Part shown: piece after piece, positions 29,013 through 38,200 of the stretch | How the letters are laid out: each line of letters opens with the position of its first letter | Position numbering within the stretch: the first letter of the stretch is position 1 | Assembly: GCA_021821305.1 (NCBI GenBank) | Contig: JAKACP010000001.1 | Location: forward strand, 132,934 to 196,933 | Reading direction: 5' to 3' | DNA length: 64,000 nt | Origin: a bacterium | GTDB lineage: Bacteria > Patescibacteriota > Minisyncoccia > Moranbacterales > UBA1568 | Position numbers and translations under genes: made by a program | Notes under the pieces: model-generated | What the model was told of the DNA's origin: nothing | Database searches by the model: none | Seen by the model: only the letters and a program-made list of their open reading frames with translations

Positions 29013-29072
29013 CAAGCGAGGGAAAAAACTGGCAATCGCCAGTTTTTTGTTTATAATTGATGAAGCATGATC

Positions 29073-29094
29073 GGACGATTAGCTCAGTTGGTTA
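29073..29094 (+). pseudogene. tRNA-Val-like 5' fragment (acceptor 5' strand plus D-arm up to GGTTA), interrupted in the D-loop
   Basis: GGACGATTAGCTCAGTTGGTTA matches the first 22 nt of the downstream tRNA-Val (GGGCAATTAGCTCAGTTGGTTA-GAGC). The D-stem 3' strand GAGC reappears only after a 63-nt insert; no anticodon or T arm follows. Confidence 0.45.
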
Positions 29095-29157
29095 CCCGCC
29101 CGAACGACCGGGTCCCCGCCAGAATGACTCTGTCGGGCTGGGTCCGGTCGGGCGGGG
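29095..29157 (+). repeat. GC-rich palindromic element (CCCGCCCGAACG...CGGGCGGGG) inserted in the tRNA-like D-loop
   Basis: CCCGCCCGAACGACCGGGTCC ... GGGTCCGGTCGGGCGGGG: imperfect long inverted repeat. Shares the CCCGCCCGAACG/CGGGCGGG core with the elements at 37983..38018 and 38145..38180. Confidence 0.5.
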
Positions 29158-29191
29158 AGCATCTCATTTTCCCGCCATACAGTGAAACTTT

Positions 29192-29265
29192 GGGCAATTA
29201 GCTCAGTTGGTTAGAGCGCCTCGTTTACACCGAGGAAGTCGGAGGTTCGAGTCCTCCATTGCCCA
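29192..29265 (+). tRNA. tRNA-Val(TAC)
   Basis: Acceptor GGGCAAT/ATTGCCC; anticodon stem CCTCG/CGAGG with loop TTTACAC; T-arm GGAGGTTCGAGTCCTCC. Confidence 0.85.
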
Positions 29266-29449
29266 CAGGCGAAAAGAATGACTCAAAATAAATGCACATC
29301 ATGCGGAGAGTTCTGGAGCAGGCACCATTGATTTTTTCCGCTGATACGATACAATAGCTCCTGTATCAGCAAGAGCCTGTTGAGAAAGTCTCTTTCGTCG
29401 CAATTCCCGGATTGCAGCAGAATACGGACTTTTTCAACAGACTCTCAGA

Positions 29450-30736: not shown

Positions 30737-31207
30737 ATGCGGCCTCGAAAATGGACGGATGCCCAGTTGATCGCGGCGGTAAAAAAATTCAAGAGTACCA
30801 GGGCCGTTATCAATGCATTGGGGCTCATCCCTGCCGGAGGAAATTATCTCCAAGTGAAAGAAAGAATACGGGATCTTGGCCTCGACACCTCGCATTTTCT
30901 CGGTATGGGATGGTGCAAAGGGATGTCTTTTGATCGTCCGATGATCCCTCTTGAGAACATTCTTGTCGAAAATTCGTCATATCAGAGTTATAAATTGAAA
31001 AAACGACTCTTCCGTCTGGGCTTGAAGATTCCTAAGTGCGAGGAATGCGGATGGGCGAAGATATCCGCTGATGGCCGGATCCCATTGGAGCTTGACCATA
31101 TCAACGGAAATTCCAGGGATCACCGGATCGGAAACTTACGGGTGCTTTGCCCCAATTGTCATAGCTTGAAGCCGACACATCGTGGAAAAAACAAGAACAG
31201 GAAGTAG
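30737..31207 (+). CDS. HNH endonuclease (free-standing, homing-endonuclease-like)
   Basis: C-terminal HNH motif ELDHINGNSRDHRIGNLRVLCPNCHSLKP plus CEECGW zinc-hook Cys. N-terminal helical region (WTDAQLIAAVKKFKSTRAVINALGL...LGLDTSHF) as in phage/actinobacterial HNH proteins. Confidence 0.85.
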   Translation: MRPRKWTDAQLIAAVKKFKSTRAVINALGLIPAGGNYLQVKERIRDLGLDTSHFLGMGWCKGMSFDRPMIPLENILVENSSYQSYKLKKRLFRLGLKIPKCEECGWAKISADGRIPLELDHINGNSRDHRIGNLRVLCPNCHSLKPTHRGKNKNRK

Positions 31208-34884: not shown

Positions 34885-35540
34885 TGTTCCACGTGGAACA
34901 TTACACTCTTGTCTTTACGATTGCCAGTTACTCAGATTCAATTTGATATTGTTCCACGTGGAACAATTCTATCGCGACTTTTCTTTGAAGATGTATAAAA
35001 GAAGGACGTGCAAATGTTCCACGTGGAACAAATGTTTTTATATGCGTTGAGTTAAAATGTTCCACGTGGAACATTCTTATGAACATCCATAGATCAGTTC
35101 GGCTCATTCTTAATTGTTCCACGTGGAACAATTGGTCGATATTTTTTTGTGCCTTAAATAAAGAAATTGGTTAATTGTTCGCTTCAAGATAAAGATCATC
35201 GGCATAATGTTCCACGTGGAACAAATATTCAAATAAAAGAAATCGACTCCCAATACCTTAAATTGTTCCACGTGGAACAATTTATTCCTACTCTCTCATC
35301 CATATTAAATTCAAAAACACAAAATGTTCCACGTGGAACATTTTTGTAATATTAAAAACCAGGATATGTTCCACGTGGAACAATTAAGAGAATTTGTTTA
35401 CAACGTCACCTTTCATATGGATTTTGTTCCACGTGGAACAAAATCAGGGAATTCTTAAATCCCTAGAGATCTGCATGTCCGTCACAATGTTCCACGTGGA
35501 ACATTGTTGCTCCTGGGCGCCTTATGTTCCACGTGGAACA
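34885..35540. repeat. array of 12 perfect 16-bp palindromes TGTTCCACGTGGAACA (symmetric parS-like sites) in an AT-rich intergenic region
   Basis: Exact copies start at 34885, 34950, 35015, 35058, 35115, 35208, 35264, 35325, 35367, 35425, 35488, 35525; spacing 37-93 bp. Several extend to 20-26-bp palindromes (e.g. TAAATTGTTCCACGTGGAACAATTTA at 35259..35284). A degenerate half-site lies at 35171..35180. Differs from B. subtilis parS TGTTCCACGTGAAACA by one base. Confidence 0.9.
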
Positions 35541-35584: not shown

Positions 35585-35830
35585 ATAATACTTGAAAGGA
35601 TCACTCGACTTTATTTCATATATATAGAGAGCCACCGAATCATCCTGACTCCGGATTTTCAAATCGGTATCCTTTCGAGAAAAGAGTGGGTGGTTTCTCG
35701 GAATTCGGCATGCGTGGTGTGCTCGAATCGGTGTCCCAGTGATTTACGCATCTTGGCATGACTTGCGTGCATGACGGCTATTGTCGTATCCCTCCAAAAG
35801 TGCTATAATGGAGTCAAACAAAATTCTCGT

Positions 35831-36838
35831 ATGGAAAAGACGGACAACCGAAACGCTCTCGCCGGGATGAGAAAGCATTTTTTCGTTTTATTCGGCCTAC
35901 TCTTCTTGAGTGGAGCCTTTTTTGTTTCCGCCGCGGAGGAAATGACCGGAAAAAATATCGTCGAAGATCCCGACCAGGACGGATTGACGACCGCAGAGGA
36001 AAAACTGTATGGAACCGATCCGATGAACCGTGATTCCGATGGTGACGGATATTCCGATGGCGTCGAAATCAAAGGCGGCTATGACCCGCTCAAGAAAGCT
36101 CCCGGAGATAAGATCATCCCGGATCAGGAAACCGATGCGGACGATGCGGGGGAATTCGGAATCGGCGGTGACAATCTCACCGAGCAGGTTTCCGAGAAGA
36201 TAGCGGCGCTCGTTCAGGAAAACAGTTCCGGTGAAGATGAGAATGCGGAAGTGTCCCTCGAGGAAATCAATCTTCTGGCTCAGAACCTGTCCGCCGGGAA
36301 CGTCGAGGAAGTGGTGCTCCCCGAAATCGATACCGATACCATCAAGGTGAAGAAGCAGTCGTACAAGAATCTTTCCGATGAAAAACGCGAGGAGCGGATC
36401 AAGGAAGATATCACCGAATATCTGACTATCATCGCCTACATCTTCGCGAACAACTCGCCGGAGCCGTTCGGGACGGATGATGAATTCAAGGACATGTCGA
36501 CGTCGCTTGTCGACAGCGCTTTGTCATCGATCTCGCTCGGCAACGTCGCCCAGCTGAACTCTCTCGCGGAAAACGGGGAGAAGGTGCTCGCGCAGATATA
36601 TGAGGTGGAGGTTCCCGAACAGATGCTCGATGTGCATGTGAAGGCGATCAAGCTCGCCAAATACGCGACCACGCTCAAGGGGGAACTCGCGGTCGACCCG
36701 GACTCCGATCCGATGAAGATGATCGCCTCGCTTTCGAAGGTGCAAGGCTTCCTGAACATCGTCGTTTCCTTCACGACGGAGATACAGTCGAAACTCTCCG
36801 AATATGGGATTTCGGAAATTCCTCTCGACATCAATTAA
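35831..36838 (+). CDS. secreted protein with thrombospondin-type-3-like Ca-binding Asp-rich repeats
   Basis: Signal peptide after MEKTDNRNALAGMRKHFFVLFGLLFLSGAFFVSA; DPDQDGLTTAEEKLYGTDPMNRDSDGDGYSDGVE repeats. Start at ATG 35831 (ORF opens at 35771). Confidence 0.6.
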   Translation: MEKTDNRNALAGMRKHFFVLFGLLFLSGAFFVSAAEEMTGKNIVEDPDQDGLTTAEEKLYGTDPMNRDSDGDGYSDGVEIKGGYDPLKKAPGDKIIPDQETDADDAGEFGIGGDNLTEQVSEKIAALVQENSSGEDENAEVSLEEINLLAQNLSAGNVEEVVLPEIDTDTIKVKKQSYKNLSDEKREERIKEDITEYLTIIAYIFANNSPEPFGTDDEFKDMSTSLVDSALSSISLGNVAQLNSLAENGEKVLAQIYEVEVPEQMLDVHVKAIKLAKYATTLKGELAVDPDSDPMKMIASLSKVQGFLNIVVSFTTEIQSKLSEYGISEIPLDIN

Positions 36839-37894: not shown

Positions 37895-37982
37895 GGGGCG
37901 GTGGACAGCGGCAATCGAAACGAAAACAGCACAGGCTGAGGCCTGGGCTGTTTTTCTTCTTCGGTGGGTGATACTGGATTCC

Positions 37983-38018
37983 CCGCCCGTACCGAACGGT
38001 ACGTTCGGGCGGGGAACC
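37983..38018. repeat. GC-rich palindromic repeat, direct copy flanking tRNA-Val(GAC)
   Basis: CCCCGCCCGTACCGAACGGTACGTTCGGGCGGGGAACC: outer stem CCCGCCCG/CGGGCGGG, inner perfect palindrome GTACCGAACGGTAC. Near-identical direct copy at 38145..38180. Confidence 0.6.
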
Positions 38019-38042
38019 AGTGACTTTTTCCCGTATGCTTTG

Positions 38043-38116
38043 TGGGCGACACAAGATTCGAACTTGTGACCTCCACAATGTCAATGTGGCGCTCTAACCA
38101 ACTGAGCTAGTCGCCC
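38043..38116 (-). tRNA. tRNA-Val(GAC)
   Basis: Minus strand: acceptor GGGCGAC/GTCGCCC; anticodon stem CCACA/TGTGG with loop TTGACAT; T-arm ACAAGTTCGAATCTTGT. Confidence 0.85.
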
Positions 38117-38144
38117 ACAAAGCATGGGATCAATGTTGTGAGGC

Positions 38145-38180
38145 TCCCCGCTCGTACCGAACGGTACGTTCGGGCGGGTA
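38145..38180. repeat. GC-rich palindromic repeat, second direct copy; on the minus strand it is inserted in the D-loop of a tRNA 5' fragment
   Basis: CCCCGCTCGTACCGAACGGTACGTTCGGGCGGGTAACC; two substitutions relative to 37983..38018. Confidence 0.6.
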
Positions 38181-38200
38181 ACCAGCTGAGCTAATCACCC
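38179..38200 (-). pseudogene. tRNA-Val-like 5' fragment, minus strand (GGGTGATTAGCTCAGCTGGTTA)
   Basis: Matches the first 22 nt of tRNA-Val(GAC) (GGGCGACTAGCTCAGTTGGTTA) with 3 substitutions. Followed on the minus strand by the GC palindrome, then GAGC, then ~29 nt to the intact tRNA. Same layout as 29073..29265. Confidence 0.45.

What the first reader, a model, noticed from the sequence alone, without database searches (positions are those of the whole stretch)
29073..29265. tRNA-Val(TAC) preceded by a tRNA 5' fragment whose D-loop is split by a 63-nt GC-rich palindrome
GGACGATTAGCTCAGTTGGTTA (a near copy of the first 22 nt of the downstream tRNA-Val) is followed by CCCGCCCGAACG...CGGGCGGGG, then GAGC (the missing D-stem 3' strand), then ~34 nt, then the intact tRNA-Val. 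No anticodon or T arm follows the fragment, so this is not a simple intron-containing tRNA. The same tripartite layout recurs on the other strand at 38043..38200 with a related palindrome. This suggests a specific element that targets or duplicates the 5' end of tRNA-Val genes. Alternatives are a tRNA-derived leader/processing signal or the scar of a site-specific integration using a 5'-proximal tRNA att site.
Basis: seen in the sequence. Interest (0 to 1): 0.7.

Follow-up and report, generated by a model that had tools for sequence, protein, structure and literature searches.

The report
Palindrome-invaded old tRNA genes with replacements
The "tRNA 5' fragment plus GC-rich palindrome" is the wreck of the original tRNA-Val gene, displaced by a working replacement copy and carrying a small palindromic DNA element that inserts only into the loops of tRNA genes; this element family is widespread in ultra-small (CPR) bacteria, often travels with a tiny GIY-YIG nuclease gene, and I found no description of it in the literature.

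Summary
There the intact tRNA-Val(GAC) sits inside an older tRNA-Val(GAC).

Relatives carry a single intact tRNA at the same positions. Its sequence matches the window's fragments (59/62 nt at locus 2), so the fragments are displaced resident genes.

The palindrome is not a generic REP. In the window it occurs only at these three sites. A metagenome scan hit the 120-locus limit, and most hits lie in tRNA D loops (A21|G22) or T loops (C56|G57). It occurs in both orientations.

An intact copy of the same tRNA usually lies next to or inside the broken one. Deleting the palindrome restores a tRNA in only 4 of 127 cases.

In 36 of 120 loci a ~79-aa GIY-YIG nuclease ORF lies between fragment and intact tRNA. 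The link also held in 4 of 5 GIY loci chosen without regard to hairpins.

I read the window's loci as nuclease-less relics of a homing-type, tRNA-invading element. The mechanism is inferred. Four of seven targeted literature searches found nothing like it.

The parts
29029..29057 (+). Promoter-like site (CTGGCA-17-TATAAT) just upstream of the old tRNA fragment. The same promoter context precedes the intact tRNA-Val(TAC) in relatives.
   Evidence: compared by eye with L016/L018/L019
29073..29094 (+). Old (displaced) tRNA-Val(TAC): acceptor 5' strand, D-stem 5' strand and D loop up to A21 (GGACGATTAGCTCAGTTGGTTA).
   Evidence: With 29157-29169 it matches the intact 'type A' tRNA-Val(TAC) of relatives at 32/35 nt.
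29095..29156 (.). Palindrome W-1, 62 nt, CCCGCCCGAACG...CGGGCGGG. It is inserted between A21 and G22 of the old D loop.
   Evidence: MFE -39.7 kcal/mol. The termini are those of the metagenome family.
29157..29169 (+). Old tRNA continued: D-stem 3' strand, nt 26, anticodon-stem 5' strand and the first 3 loop nt (GAGCATCTCATTT). The gene breaks off inside the anticodon loop.
   Evidence: In the family, break points cluster at tRNA nt 27-48, median 34.
29170..29191 (+). 22-nt filler between the old fragment and the replacement tRNA. It holds no ORF.
   Evidence: In 17 D-type related loci a GIY-YIG ORF sits at this position.
29192..29266 (+). Intact replacement tRNA-Val(TAC), 'type B' (GGGCAAT...ATTGCCCA).
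   Evidence: It matches L024 at 71/75 and L025 at 72/76, against about 60/75 for type A.
38179..38200 (-). Old tRNA-Val(GAC) shell: acceptor 5' strand, D-stem 5' strand and D loop (GGGTGATTAGCTCAGCTGGTTA).
   Evidence: Together with 38137-38146 it matches the single intact tRNA of relative L007 at 31/32 nt.
38147..38178 (.). Palindrome W-2a, 32 nt (CCCGCCCGAACGTACCGTTCGGTACGAGCGGG on the - strand), in the old D loop at A21|G22.
38137..38146 (-). Old D-stem 3' strand, nt 26 and anticodon-stem 5' strand (GAGCCTCACA).
38035..38125 (-). Cargo: the intact tRNA-Val(GAC) (38116-38042) with a perfect 16-nt leader/trailer inverted repeat (ATGCTTTGTGGGCGAC / GTCGCCCACAAAGCAT) that extends its acceptor stem.
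   Evidence: repeat I19. The inner tRNA is identical in L010, L013 and L014 and matches the ancestral tRNA at only 63/75.
38014..38026 (-). Old variable loop, T-stem 5' strand and TTC of the T loop (AAGTCACTGGTTC).
37982..38013 (.). Palindrome W-2b, 32 nt (CCCGCCCGAACGTACCGTTCGGTACGGGCGGG on the - strand), in the old T loop at C56|G57. It is absent from the orthologous shells of L013 and L014.
   Evidence: It is the commonest variant in metagenomes: 5 identical copies plus 8 as the reverse complement.
37965..37981 (-). Old T-loop remainder, T-stem 3' strand, acceptor 3' strand and A73 (GAATCCAGTATCACCCA). It pairs with 38200-38194.
   Evidence: 28/30 with L007 when taken together with 38014-38026
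37932..37945 (-). Terminator-like hairpin followed by a T run, after the whole nested unit.

Best explanation
Both loci are relics of the invasion of a resident tRNA-Val gene by a selfish DNA element family that specialises in tRNA genes of CPR (Patescibacteria) bacteria.

Shown:
- The 5' fragment at both loci, and the 3' fragment at locus 2, is the old resident tRNA.
- A complete tRNA of the same anticodon now sits in or after the old anticodon arm and does the work.
- The old gene's D loop (and T loop at locus 2) carries a GC-rich palindrome with CCCGCCCG/CGGGCGGG ends. It is inserted exactly at A21|G22 or C56|G57, with no target duplication.
- The same palindrome family, including the identical 32-mer, is found in many different tRNA genes of many metagenomic organisms. 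It occurs at the same two sites and in either orientation.
- The invaded copy is usually degenerate, and an intact copy of the same tRNA usually lies adjacent to or inside it.
- In about 30% of those loci a ~79-aa GIY-YIG nuclease gene lies between the displaced fragment and the intact tRNA.

Inferred:
- The nuclease-bearing forms are the autonomous elements. They spread like free-standing homing endonuclease genes: a break in a naive tRNA gene is repaired from an element-bearing allele.
- Instead of splicing, they keep the host alive by bringing a replacement for the displaced part of the tRNA, or a whole tRNA.
- The palindromes are companion, non-autonomous stem-loop elements that insert into the loops of tRNA-arm stem-loops. 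They can only persist in the redundant copy, because insertion in the working copy would be lethal.
- The window copies have no nuclease gene and are non-autonomous or fossil copies.
- The fragment, palindrome and tRNA are probably co-transcribed from the old tRNA promoter.
For: 1. The fragments are the old resident genes.
- L007 and L008/9 have one intact tRNA-Val(GAC) at the position of locus 2. For L007 the match to the window shell is 31/32 at the 5' end and 28/30 at the 3' end, whereas the inner tRNA matches at only 63/75.
- L016, L018 and L019 have an intact tRNA-Val(TAC) behind the same promoter as the locus-1 fragment, matching 31-32/35; L022 and L023 carry the same type-A gene (32/35).

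2. Intermediate states exist in closer relatives.
- L014 and L013 have the nested gene with an intact old 3' half and no T-loop palindrome.
- L010 has the shell almost deleted.

3. There is a second nested case in L014, in tRNA-Arg(CCT). It has a D-loop palindrome, and the new tRNA sits inside GC-rich inverted repeats inserted at the T-loop site.

4. The family is widespread and loop-specific.
- Most of the 127 lie in tRNA D or T loops; at least 8 loci, and up to about 15 hits (roughly 12%), look like chance GC-rich matches. This was judged by eye, not counted.
- All 9 additional family hairpins in the 750 kb are in what I read as tRNA-derived sequence.
- In 1.26 Mb of mostly non-CPR control loci the family is confined to CPR loci, apart from one chance hit.

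5. The invaded copies are usually dead and an intact copy is usually nearby.
- Deleting the hairpin restores an ARAGORN tRNA in 4 of 127 cases.
- 56 of 77 D-type hits have an intact tRNA within 600 nt downstream, 38 of them within 150 nt. 26 of 50 T-type hits have one within 600 nt upstream.
- The acceptor strand is identical in 15 of 32 D-type pairs, a mean of 4.6 matches against 2.7 when partners are permuted.
- The 3' ends match 18/18 in 16 of 26 T-type pairs.

6. Cargo-carrying forms with the same termini exist, up to three nested layers (L173, L154, L218, L135).

7. Orientation is close to even: 30:33 in D loops and 12:13 in T loops. The window's W-2b is the commonest variant, with 13 copies.

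8. The GIY-YIG link.
- It is the largest ORF cluster in the loci.
- tblastn finds it in 36 of 120 loci; in nearly all it lies next to a family hairpin, but one of the two copies in L237 is about 1.3 kb away.
- It matches Pfam PF01541 with E-values down to 1e-14.
- The order is fixed: fragment+hairpin, then ORF, then tRNA in 12 of 13 D-type cases with enough sequence (the exception, L148, shows a tRNA start at the contig end); tRNA, then ORF, then fragment+hairpin in 14 of 15 T-type cases.
- The link also holds in 4 of 5 GIY loci not selected by hairpin: L250, L252, L253 and L254 (L252 only partly: an intact tRNA abuts the ORF, with an unclear 5' remnant).

9. A promoter-like site lies before the locus-1 fragment. 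No terminator lies between either fragment and its tRNA, and a terminator follows the nested unit at locus 2.
Against: - No GIY-YIG homologue is present in the 64-kb window or in the fetched Moranbacteria loci. The link between the window's copies and the nuclease rests on shared palindrome sequence and architecture only.
- The metagenome loci were selected by the palindrome with tRNA-like flanks, so the 'only in tRNA' figures are partly circular. Only the 9 extra hairpins, the window itself and the control loci are unbiased.
- One more distant GIY-YIG homologue (L080) is not next to a tRNA.
- Nuclease activity, target site and homing are untested.
- How the intact copy escapes cleavage is unexplained.
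- At locus 1 a simpler history fits equally well: two tandem paralogues A and B, one decaying in each lineage.
- A few hairpin-bearing genes look otherwise intact (L142, L187/L239, L221).
Confidence: 0.62

Rival explanations
1. Passive decay. The tRNA-Val genes were duplicated by ordinary tandem duplication or recombination, one copy became a pseudogene, and an unrelated REP- or MITE-like palindrome happened to settle in the dead copy. No dedicated tRNA-invading element or nuclease is involved in the window lineage.
For: - At locus 1, relatives show two tRNA-Val(TAC) paralogue types, with either one decayed: L022 has A intact and a B remnant, L024 has A decayed and B intact, L025 has only B, L023 has only A.
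- There is no nuclease gene in the window.
- Deletions between hairpins are visible when L016 is compared with L018.
Against: - This does not explain the true nesting at locus 2, or in L014-Arg, L135, L173, L154 and L204.
- It does not explain why the palindrome lands at exactly A21|G22 or C56|G57 in dozens of different tRNAs, and nowhere else in the window or among the 9 flank-unselected hairpins of the 750-kb sample.
- It does not explain the recurrent GIY-YIG ORF in a fixed position.
Confidence: 0.2
2. RNA-level function. The tRNA-like shell with its hairpins is kept as a leader/trailer scaffold that helps transcription, processing (RNase P/Z, RNase III) or stability of the embedded tRNA or of the nuclease mRNA.
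For: - The shell is co-linear with the tRNA between a promoter-like site and a terminator.
- The whole locus-2 RNA folds far better than shuffles do, z = -10.8.
- Leader/trailer helices flank several inner tRNAs.
- Hairpins sit at the 5' or 3' end of the GIY ORF, where stem-loops can stabilise an mRNA (the stabilising role is general knowledge).
Against: - The palindrome occurs in both orientations equally.
- Relatives manage with a plain tRNA.
- Shells decay and are deleted among close relatives, as in L010.
- The strong fold is largely the trivial consequence of two copies of a palindrome plus a tRNA.
Confidence: 0.08
3. The palindromes are intervening sequences of functional tRNAs (a new bacterial tRNA intron or fragmented tRNA). 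They are removed or tolerated after transcription.
For: - In 4 of 127 cases, deleting the hairpin gives an ARAGORN tRNA.
- L187/L239 have no intact copy within 900 nt.
- The D-loop and T-loop positions both lie at the tRNA elbow. Multi-intron archaeal tRNAs are a precedent (from memory).
Against: - 123 of 127 are not restored.
- The window shells lack an anticodon loop and half of the anticodon stem.
- An intact isoacceptor is usually adjacent.
- There is no Rfam intron match.
- The element occurs in both orientations.
Confidence: 0.04
4. Scars of integrase-mediated integration and excision of genomic islands or prophages at tRNA att sites.
For: Partial direct repeats of a tRNA next to an intact tRNA are the classic signature of such elements (general knowledge). 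The T-type architecture resembles attL/attR.
Against: - 5' fragments and fully nested genes are not produced by that mechanism.
- The DNA between the repeats is 20-390 nt, not kilobases.
- No integrase was found among the window's neighbouring ORFs or among the fifteen largest ORF clusters printed for the 120 loci, only the top one of which was annotated.
- The palindrome is not part of known att sites.
Confidence: 0.03

Closest known systems
SegB and other free-standing GIY-YIG homing endonucleases of T-even phages
   Same: - It is a GIY-YIG nuclease gene lying among tRNA genes.
- It is reported to cut within tRNA-containing sequence.
- It drives recombination that copies the nuclease gene together with adjacent tRNA sequence, including tandem amplification through homology between the tRNA 5' region and the segB 3' end (PMC13096335).
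- The CPR loci show nuclease ORFs abutting tRNAs, partial tRNA duplicates and, in L231, a tandem array.
   Different: - The CPR protein is only ~79 aa, a bare catalytic domain of the UPF0213 type. It has no recognisable DNA-binding domain.
- It is chromosomal in bacteria, not in phage.
- It sits between a displaced fragment and the restored tRNA.
- It is accompanied by loop-specific palindromes.
- No nuclease gene is present in this window.
REP/BIME elements and their RAYT transposases; MITEs
   Same: They are short GC-rich imperfect palindromes that are repeated and evidently copied from place to place. The window's W-2a and W-2b differ by 1 nt, and identical 32-mers occur in unrelated contigs.
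   Different: - REPs are dispersed in extragenic DNA. Here every copy that could be checked without selection bias is inside tRNA-derived sequence, at two defined nucleotide positions.
- There is no target-site duplication.
- No Y1/RAYT or IS transposase turned up. The associated ORF is a GIY-YIG.
Mobile GC clusters of yeast mitochondria, double-hairpin elements of Allomyces and other mitochondria, and the Allomyces atp6 insertion that brings a GIY-YIG ORF plus a replacement gene end (from memory, not checked here)
   Same: - They are GC-rich hairpin elements that insert into genes, including RNA genes.
- The Allomyces case is an endonuclease ORF that enters a gene together with a copy of the displaced gene segment, leaving the old segment as a pseudogene.
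   Different: - They are organellar rather than bacterial.
- Their targets are protein or rRNA genes.
- They are not known to be specific for tRNA loops or to build nested tRNA genes.
Genomic islands and prophages integrating in tRNA genes
   Same: The element restores the interrupted tRNA by carrying a copy of the displaced part. The old part stays behind as a partial direct repeat.
   Different: - They use integrases and carry kilobases of cargo.
- They displace 3' parts only.
- Here 5' parts, 3' parts or both are displaced, the cargo is 0-300 nt, and the gene found is a nuclease.
Group I introns in Patescibacteria tRNA genes
   Same: They occur in the same phylum and interrupt tRNA genes in the anticodon loop. 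Such tRNAs are missed by standard tools (PMC13011429).
   Different: Those are self-splicing ribozymes that restore the tRNA at the RNA level. Here there is no ribozyme and the interrupted gene is not restorable. The function is rescued at the DNA level by a second copy.

Membership tests
Intron-containing tRNA (group I or bulge-helix-bulge) | Removing the insert yields a canonical tRNA. | tested here: not met
   ARAGORN with introns up to 400 nt finds only the inner tRNAs. Hairpin deletion restores 4 of 127 family members, none of them in the window.
Intron-containing tRNA (group I or bulge-helix-bulge) | A group I catalytic core or other known intron RNA. | tested here: not met
   Rfam at gathering threshold on the whole window, and at E<=1 on locus 2, gives tRNA only.
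REP/BIME (RAYT-mobilised) | Short imperfect palindrome present in many copies. | tested here: met
   Three copies in the window. At least 120 loci and 86 distinct variants in metagenomes.
REP/BIME (RAYT-mobilised) | Dispersed in extragenic DNA without gene specificity. | tested here: not met
   The window has only the 3 tRNA-shell sites. None of the 9 flank-unselected hairpins lies outside what I read as tRNA-derived sequence.
REP/BIME (RAYT-mobilised) | Cognate Y1 (RAYT) transposase gene flanked by REPs. | tested here: inconclusive
   Only the largest ORF cluster of the 120 loci was annotated, and it is a GIY-YIG; the other clusters were not scanned for Y1 transposases. Whole genomes could not be examined.
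MITE / IS-derived element | Target-site duplication flanking terminal inverted repeats. | tested here: not met
   The flanks read GGTTA|..|GAGC and GGTTC|..|GAATCC, which is the uninterrupted tRNA sequence with nothing duplicated.
Free-standing GIY-YIG homing endonuclease element (Seg-like) | A GIY-YIG ORF within the element. | tested here: not met
   It is absent from the window and from the Moranbacteria loci (tblastn). It is present in 36 of 120 related loci. The window copies can therefore only be non-autonomous relatives.
Free-standing GIY-YIG homing endonuclease element (Seg-like) | The ORF lies next to the target gene, and flanking gene sequence is co-converted or duplicated. | tested here: met
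   This holds for the family. The order fragment+hairpin / ORF / intact tRNA, or its mirror, is fixed. Fragment and tRNA are often identical.
Free-standing GIY-YIG homing endonuclease element (Seg-like) | Site-specific cleavage of the nuclease-less allele, and homing. | not testable with these tools
   This needs biochemistry or population data.
Integrase-type tRNA-targeting island | An integrase gene and kilobase-scale cargo between partial tRNA repeats. | tested here: not met
   The neighbouring ORFs are L19, RluD-like, 3D-domain, HNH, dCTP deaminase and TSP3-repeat proteins. The spacing between fragment and tRNA is 22-25 nt in the window.

The most novel reading that the evidence does not exclude
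A previously undescribed class of minimal mobile element. In this reading, stem-loop DNA (an empty GC-rich palindrome, a palindrome carrying a tRNA, or one carrying a 79-aa GIY-YIG nuclease) inserts into the loops of the stem-loops that tRNA genes form: the D, anticodon and T arms. This is catalysed or triggered by the bare GIY-YIG domain. The element survives in essential single-copy genes of tiny genomes by delivering a replacement tRNA, and so drives continual turnover and Russian-doll nesting of tRNA genes across the CPR.
Probability: 0.3. Interest if true: 0.9.

Novelty: new variant of a known kind. Interest (0 to 1): 0.8.

Why it matters
- **tRNA gene turnover.** CPR bacteria have ~1-Mb genomes with mostly single-copy tRNA genes. 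A selfish element that lives inside those genes and keeps the host alive by supplying a replacement copy would be a new solution to the 'how to parasitise an essential gene' problem. The known solutions are self-splicing introns and inteins. It would also explain rapid tRNA allele replacement in these lineages.
- **Annotation.** The shells, fragments and tandem arrays confuse tRNA finders and break assemblies. Several of the short-read contigs examined here end at tRNA repeats or hairpins. tRNA complements of CPR genomes may therefore be mis-scored.
- **Tools.** A 79-aa nuclease with an apparently precise relation to defined DNA stem-loop positions, if confirmed, would be among the smallest site- or structure-specific nucleases.
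- **Testability.** The palindrome, the insertion positions and the ORF are all defined, so the question can be tested directly in vitro.

Tried and rejected
- **Intron-containing or split tRNA.** ARAGORN in intron mode and in-silico deletion of the palindromes were both negative.
- **Known RNA family.** Rfam at gathering threshold and at permissive E-value gave tRNA only. The ~150-nt element of relatives has no match either.
- **Phage origin.** Viral-contig scans for the inner tRNA with its flank found nothing. Scans for the palindrome found only a chance match in a conserved phage coding region.
- **Generic REP.** Rejected from the window census and from the extra hairpins in related loci.
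- **The window's HNH ORF (30737-31207) as the mobilising enzyme.** It has no homologue in the 120 hairpin loci and no tRNA fragments around it.
- **A GIY-YIG gene in the window or close relatives.** None was found.
- **Literature.** Eight full-text searches were run; four that combined tRNA with palindromes, nesting, MITEs or GIY-YIG found nothing like this. The others yielded only the group I intron paper, unrelated mitochondrial or archaeal papers and the SegB paper.
- **Locating the 3' half of the locus-1 shell.** Only a diverged remnant candidate, 29310-29335, aligns with L018. I left it out of the parts list as uncertain.
Full report
**1. Check of the observation**

Locus 1, on the + strand, runs as follows.
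- GGACGATTAGCTCAGTTGGTTA at 29073-29094.
- A 62-nt palindrome, CCCGCCCGAACG...CGGGCGGG, at 29095-29156.
- GAGCATCTCATTT at 29157-29169.
- 22 nt of filler.
- tRNA-Val(TAC) at 29192-29266.

Locus 2, on the - strand, runs as follows.
- GGGTGATTAGCTCAGCTGGTTA at 38200-38179.
- A 32-nt palindrome at 38178-38147.
- GAGCCTCACA, then filler.
- tRNA-Val(GAC) at 38116-38042.

ARAGORN and Rfam call only the downstream tRNAs. ARAGORN with introns of up to 400 nt finds nothing credible. Locus 1 is identical in three independent metagenome assemblies, so it is not an assembly chimera.

**2.

On the - strand the intact tRNA-Val(GAC) is followed by three further pieces.
- AAGTCACTGGTTC at 38026-38014.
- A third palindrome copy at 38013-37982. 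It differs from the D-loop copy by 1 nt.
- GAATCCAGTATCACCCA at 37981-37965, followed by a terminator.

This is the variable loop, T arm and acceptor 3' strand of a tRNA. Its acceptor pairs with the GGGTGAT of the 5' fragment. Locus 2 is therefore an intact tRNA nested inside an older tRNA. The older gene has palindromes in its D loop (between A21 and G22) and its T loop (between C56 and G57), and its anticodon arm is replaced by the new gene.

**3. Origin of the fragments**

The window comes from a CPR bacterium related to Candidatus Moranbacteria. I used homologues of the flanking proteins to fetch the orthologous loci.

At locus 2:
- L007 and L008/9 have one plain tRNA-Val(GAC), GGGTGATTAGCTCAGCTGGTTAGAGCGTCACATTGACATTGTGAAGGTCACTGGTTCGAGTCCAGTATCACCCA. 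L005 also has a single plain tRNA-Val(GAC) but with a different acceptor stem (GGACAAT...), matching the shell at 27/32 and 26/30.
- The window's outer shell matches the L007 tRNA at 31/32 (5') and 28/30 (3'). The inner tRNA matches at only 63/75.
- Closer relatives show intermediate states. L014 and L013 have the same inner tRNA, an old 3' half that is still intact, and no T-loop palindrome. L014 has a different palindrome variant at the D-loop site. L010 has lost almost the whole shell.

At locus 1:
- L016, L018 and L019 have an intact 'type A' tRNA-Val(TAC) behind the same promoter, matching the fragment at 31-32/35. L022 and L023 carry the same type-A gene (32/35), but promoter context was not compared there.
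- The window's intact gene is 'type B', as in L024 and L025.
- Either type can be the decayed one, and the decayed copy carries GC-rich hairpins in its D or T loop.

The fragments are therefore displaced resident genes, not products of the palindrome.

**4. Is the palindrome a generic REP?**

It is not.
- In the 64-kb window, CCCGCCC-type palindromes occur only at the three shell sites.
- A second nested case turned up by chance in L014. An old tRNA-Arg(CCT) has a palindrome at the D-loop site. At the T-loop site it has a GC-rich inverted repeat that encloses a complete new tRNA-Arg(CCT). The window and L013 have the plain gene.
Most read 'tagctcagytGGTTA|palindrome|GAGC..' (D loop) or '..gggGGTTC|palindrome|GAnTCC..acceptor' (T loop). 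At least 8 loci, and up to about 15 hits, look like chance GC-rich matches outside tRNA context. They belong to Val, Ile, Met, Asp, His, Arg, Trp, Pro, Leu and Thr genes.
- The nine further family palindromes in those 750 kb were not selected by flank, and they also lie in what I read as tRNA-derived sequence.
- In 1.26 Mb of rplS loci from mostly non-CPR genomes the family is confined to CPR loci, apart from one chance hit in Pseudonocardia.
- Of 127 hits, 86 are distinct. Orientation is close to even: 30:33 in D loops and 12:13 in T loops.
- The window's T-loop 32-mer is the commonest variant, with 5 identical copies and 8 as the reverse complement. This speaks for a DNA-level palindromic element that is copied between sites and genomes.

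**5. Architecture of the family**

- Deleting the palindrome restores an ARAGORN tRNA in only 4 of 127 cases, so the invaded copies are mostly dead.
- 56 of 77 D-type hits have an intact tRNA within 600 nt downstream, 38 of them within 150 nt. 26 of 50 T-type hits have one within 600 nt upstream. Many of the rest sit at contig ends.
- The fragment and its neighbour are usually the same tRNA. The acceptor is identical in 15 of 32 D-type pairs (mean 4.6 of 7 matches, against 2.7 when partners are permuted). The 3' end is identical (18/18) in 16 of 26 T-type pairs.
- 5' fragments end at tRNA nt 27-48, median 34. 3' fragments mostly start at nt 42-55.
- Fully nested examples occur in L135 (Trp), L167 and L178 (Pro), L204 (Val) and L173 (Val). 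In L173 the inner tRNA is flanked by perfect 11-bp inverted repeats, CCCGCCCACCA/TGGTGGGCGGG, with the family termini.
- L154 and L218 show three nested layers. L231 has five tandem fragment+palindrome units.
- Several inner tRNAs, including the window's (16-nt repeat), have leader/trailer inverted repeats that extend the acceptor stem.

**6. An associated gene**

- Clustering all ORFs of the 120 loci gave one dominant family, a ~79-aa protein.
- It matches Pfam GIY-YIG PF01541 with E-values down to 1e-14. The nearest solved structures are the UPF0213 proteins 1zg2 and 1ywl.
- tblastn finds it in 36 of 120 loci, in nearly all next to a family palindrome and on the tRNA strand; one of the two copies in L237 lies about 1.3 kb from the hairpin.
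- The order is fixed. D-type loci read old 5' fragment+palindrome, then ORF, then intact tRNA: 12 of 13 cases with enough sequence (the exception, L148, shows a tRNA start at the contig end). T-type loci read intact tRNA, then ORF, then old 3' fragment+palindrome: 14 of 15 cases.
- Loci chosen through the protein alone mostly show the same picture.
  - L250 (Parcubacteria): fragment, palindrome, ORF, then tRNA-Thr, with the stop codon inside the tRNA.
  - L253: a CCTGCC-type palindrome at the same D-loop site.
  - L254 also fits; L252 only partly (an intact tRNA-Arg abuts the ORF, the upstream remnant is unclear).
  - L080, a 45%-identical homologue, is not next to a tRNA. The tally is therefore 4 of 5.
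- Homologues carry names from Taylorbacteria, Uhrbacteria, Parcubacteria, Minisyncoccia and Patescibacteria.
- No homologue is present in the window or in the fetched Moranbacteria loci.

**7. Interpretation**

Shown:
- The displaced old genes, the intact replacement copies, the loop-specific palindromes and their spread.
- The recurrent nuclease ORF in a fixed position.

Inferred:
- The nuclease-bearing units are the autonomous elements. They spread by break-and-repair, as free-standing homing endonuclease genes do.
- The simplest reading of the one-sided forms is that the element carries the nuclease gene plus a copy of the displaced tRNA part. The working tRNA is thereby rebuilt, as with tRNA-integrating islands.
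- The nested forms carry a whole tRNA.
- The palindromes are companion stem-loop elements. They persist only in the redundant copy, because insertion into the working copy would be lethal.
- By interrupting the direct repeat between fragment and tRNA, they might also stabilise the element against deletion. This is speculation.
- The window's loci are nuclease-less derivatives or fossils.
- At locus 1 the fragment, palindrome and tRNA lie between a promoter-like site and the next promoter, with no terminator between them. They are therefore probably co-transcribed.

**8. Comparison with what is known**

- The closest described system is SegB. It is a free-standing GIY-YIG endonuclease in the tRNA cluster of T-even phages. 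It cuts in tRNA-containing sequence and drives recombination and tandem amplification of tRNA+segB segments (PMC13096335).
- Group I introns are common in Patescibacteria tRNAs (PMC13011429), but they are ribozymes that restore the RNA. That is not what is here.
- REP/RAYT elements, MITEs, mitochondrial GC clusters and double-hairpin elements, and the Allomyces atp6 insertion (these last from memory) share single features.
- Four of the eight full-text searches, those combining tRNA with palindromes, nesting, MITEs or GIY-YIG, found nothing like this; the others returned only the intron paper, the SegB paper and unrelated mitochondrial or archaeal papers.
- I therefore rate it a new variant of known kinds (homing-endonuclease-type and palindromic selfish DNA). 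What is unusual is the target, the rescue strategy and the nested tRNA genes that result.

**9. Caveats**

- The metagenome loci were selected with tRNA-like flanks, so only part of the 'tRNA-only' evidence is unbiased.
- The link between the window's copies and the nuclease is by sequence family and architecture, not by a gene in the window.
- Nuclease activity, target and homing are untested.
- It is unexplained how the intact tRNA avoids being cut.
- Locus 1 can also be read as differential decay of two tandem paralogues.
- A few palindrome-bearing genes look otherwise intact, so a minority intron-like role cannot be excluded.

Noticed in passing
window 34886-35539: There are twelve perfect copies of GTTCCACGTGGAAC, the core of the palindrome TGTTCCACGTGGAACA, 37-93 nt apart and nowhere else in the window (0.01 expected by chance). 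They lie between tRNA-Ala/Arg and the ORF at 35771-36838. The array looks like an iteron, operator or origin.
   Followed up: partly
window 29375-29441: There is an inverted repeat, CTGTTGAGAAAGTC...GACTTTTTCAACAG, just before tRNA-Phe. Two independent contigs end at 29438 and a third diverges there. This suggests a dispersed repeat or a structural variant.
   Followed up: no
window 30737-31207: A free-standing 156-aa HNH endonuclease ORF is wedged between tRNA-Cys and tRNA-Leu(TAA). Relatives L018 and L022 have the two tRNAs 25-40 nt apart with no ORF between them. There are no tRNA fragments around it, and it has no homologue in the 120 palindrome loci.
   Followed up: partly
L019 3107-3275; also L016, L018, L023 (twice) and L015: A conserved ~150-nt GC-rich structured element lies after tRNA-Leu(GAG). 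It is followed by a duplicate of the tRNA-Leu 3' end from the T loop onward. It has no ORF and no Rfam match, and it is absent from the window. It looks like a T-type relic of the same kind of invasion.
   Followed up: partly
L231 1-450: Five tandem units of [tRNA-Ile(TAT) 5' fragment + palindrome + stub] precede the intact tRNA-Ile(TAT). This is reminiscent of the segmental amplification reported for SegB.
   Followed up: no
L187 and L239 (T-loop hit): A tRNA-like gene is recognised by ARAGORN (as Ser-TGA, 76 nt) only after the T-loop palindrome is deleted. No intact copy lies within 900 nt. It is a candidate for a palindrome-bearing gene that is still needed.
   Followed up: partly
L080 13285-13509: A GIY-YIG homologue (about 45% identity) in a Doudnabacteria genome has no tRNA or fragment next to it. 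The protein family is therefore not exclusively tRNA-linked.
   Followed up: yes
L253 around 800-900: The second, presumably working, copy of the tRNA after the GIY ORF is itself interrupted after the anticodon stem, and ARAGORN does not call it. The interruption may be a group I intron, as reported for Patescibacteria tRNAs.
   Followed up: no
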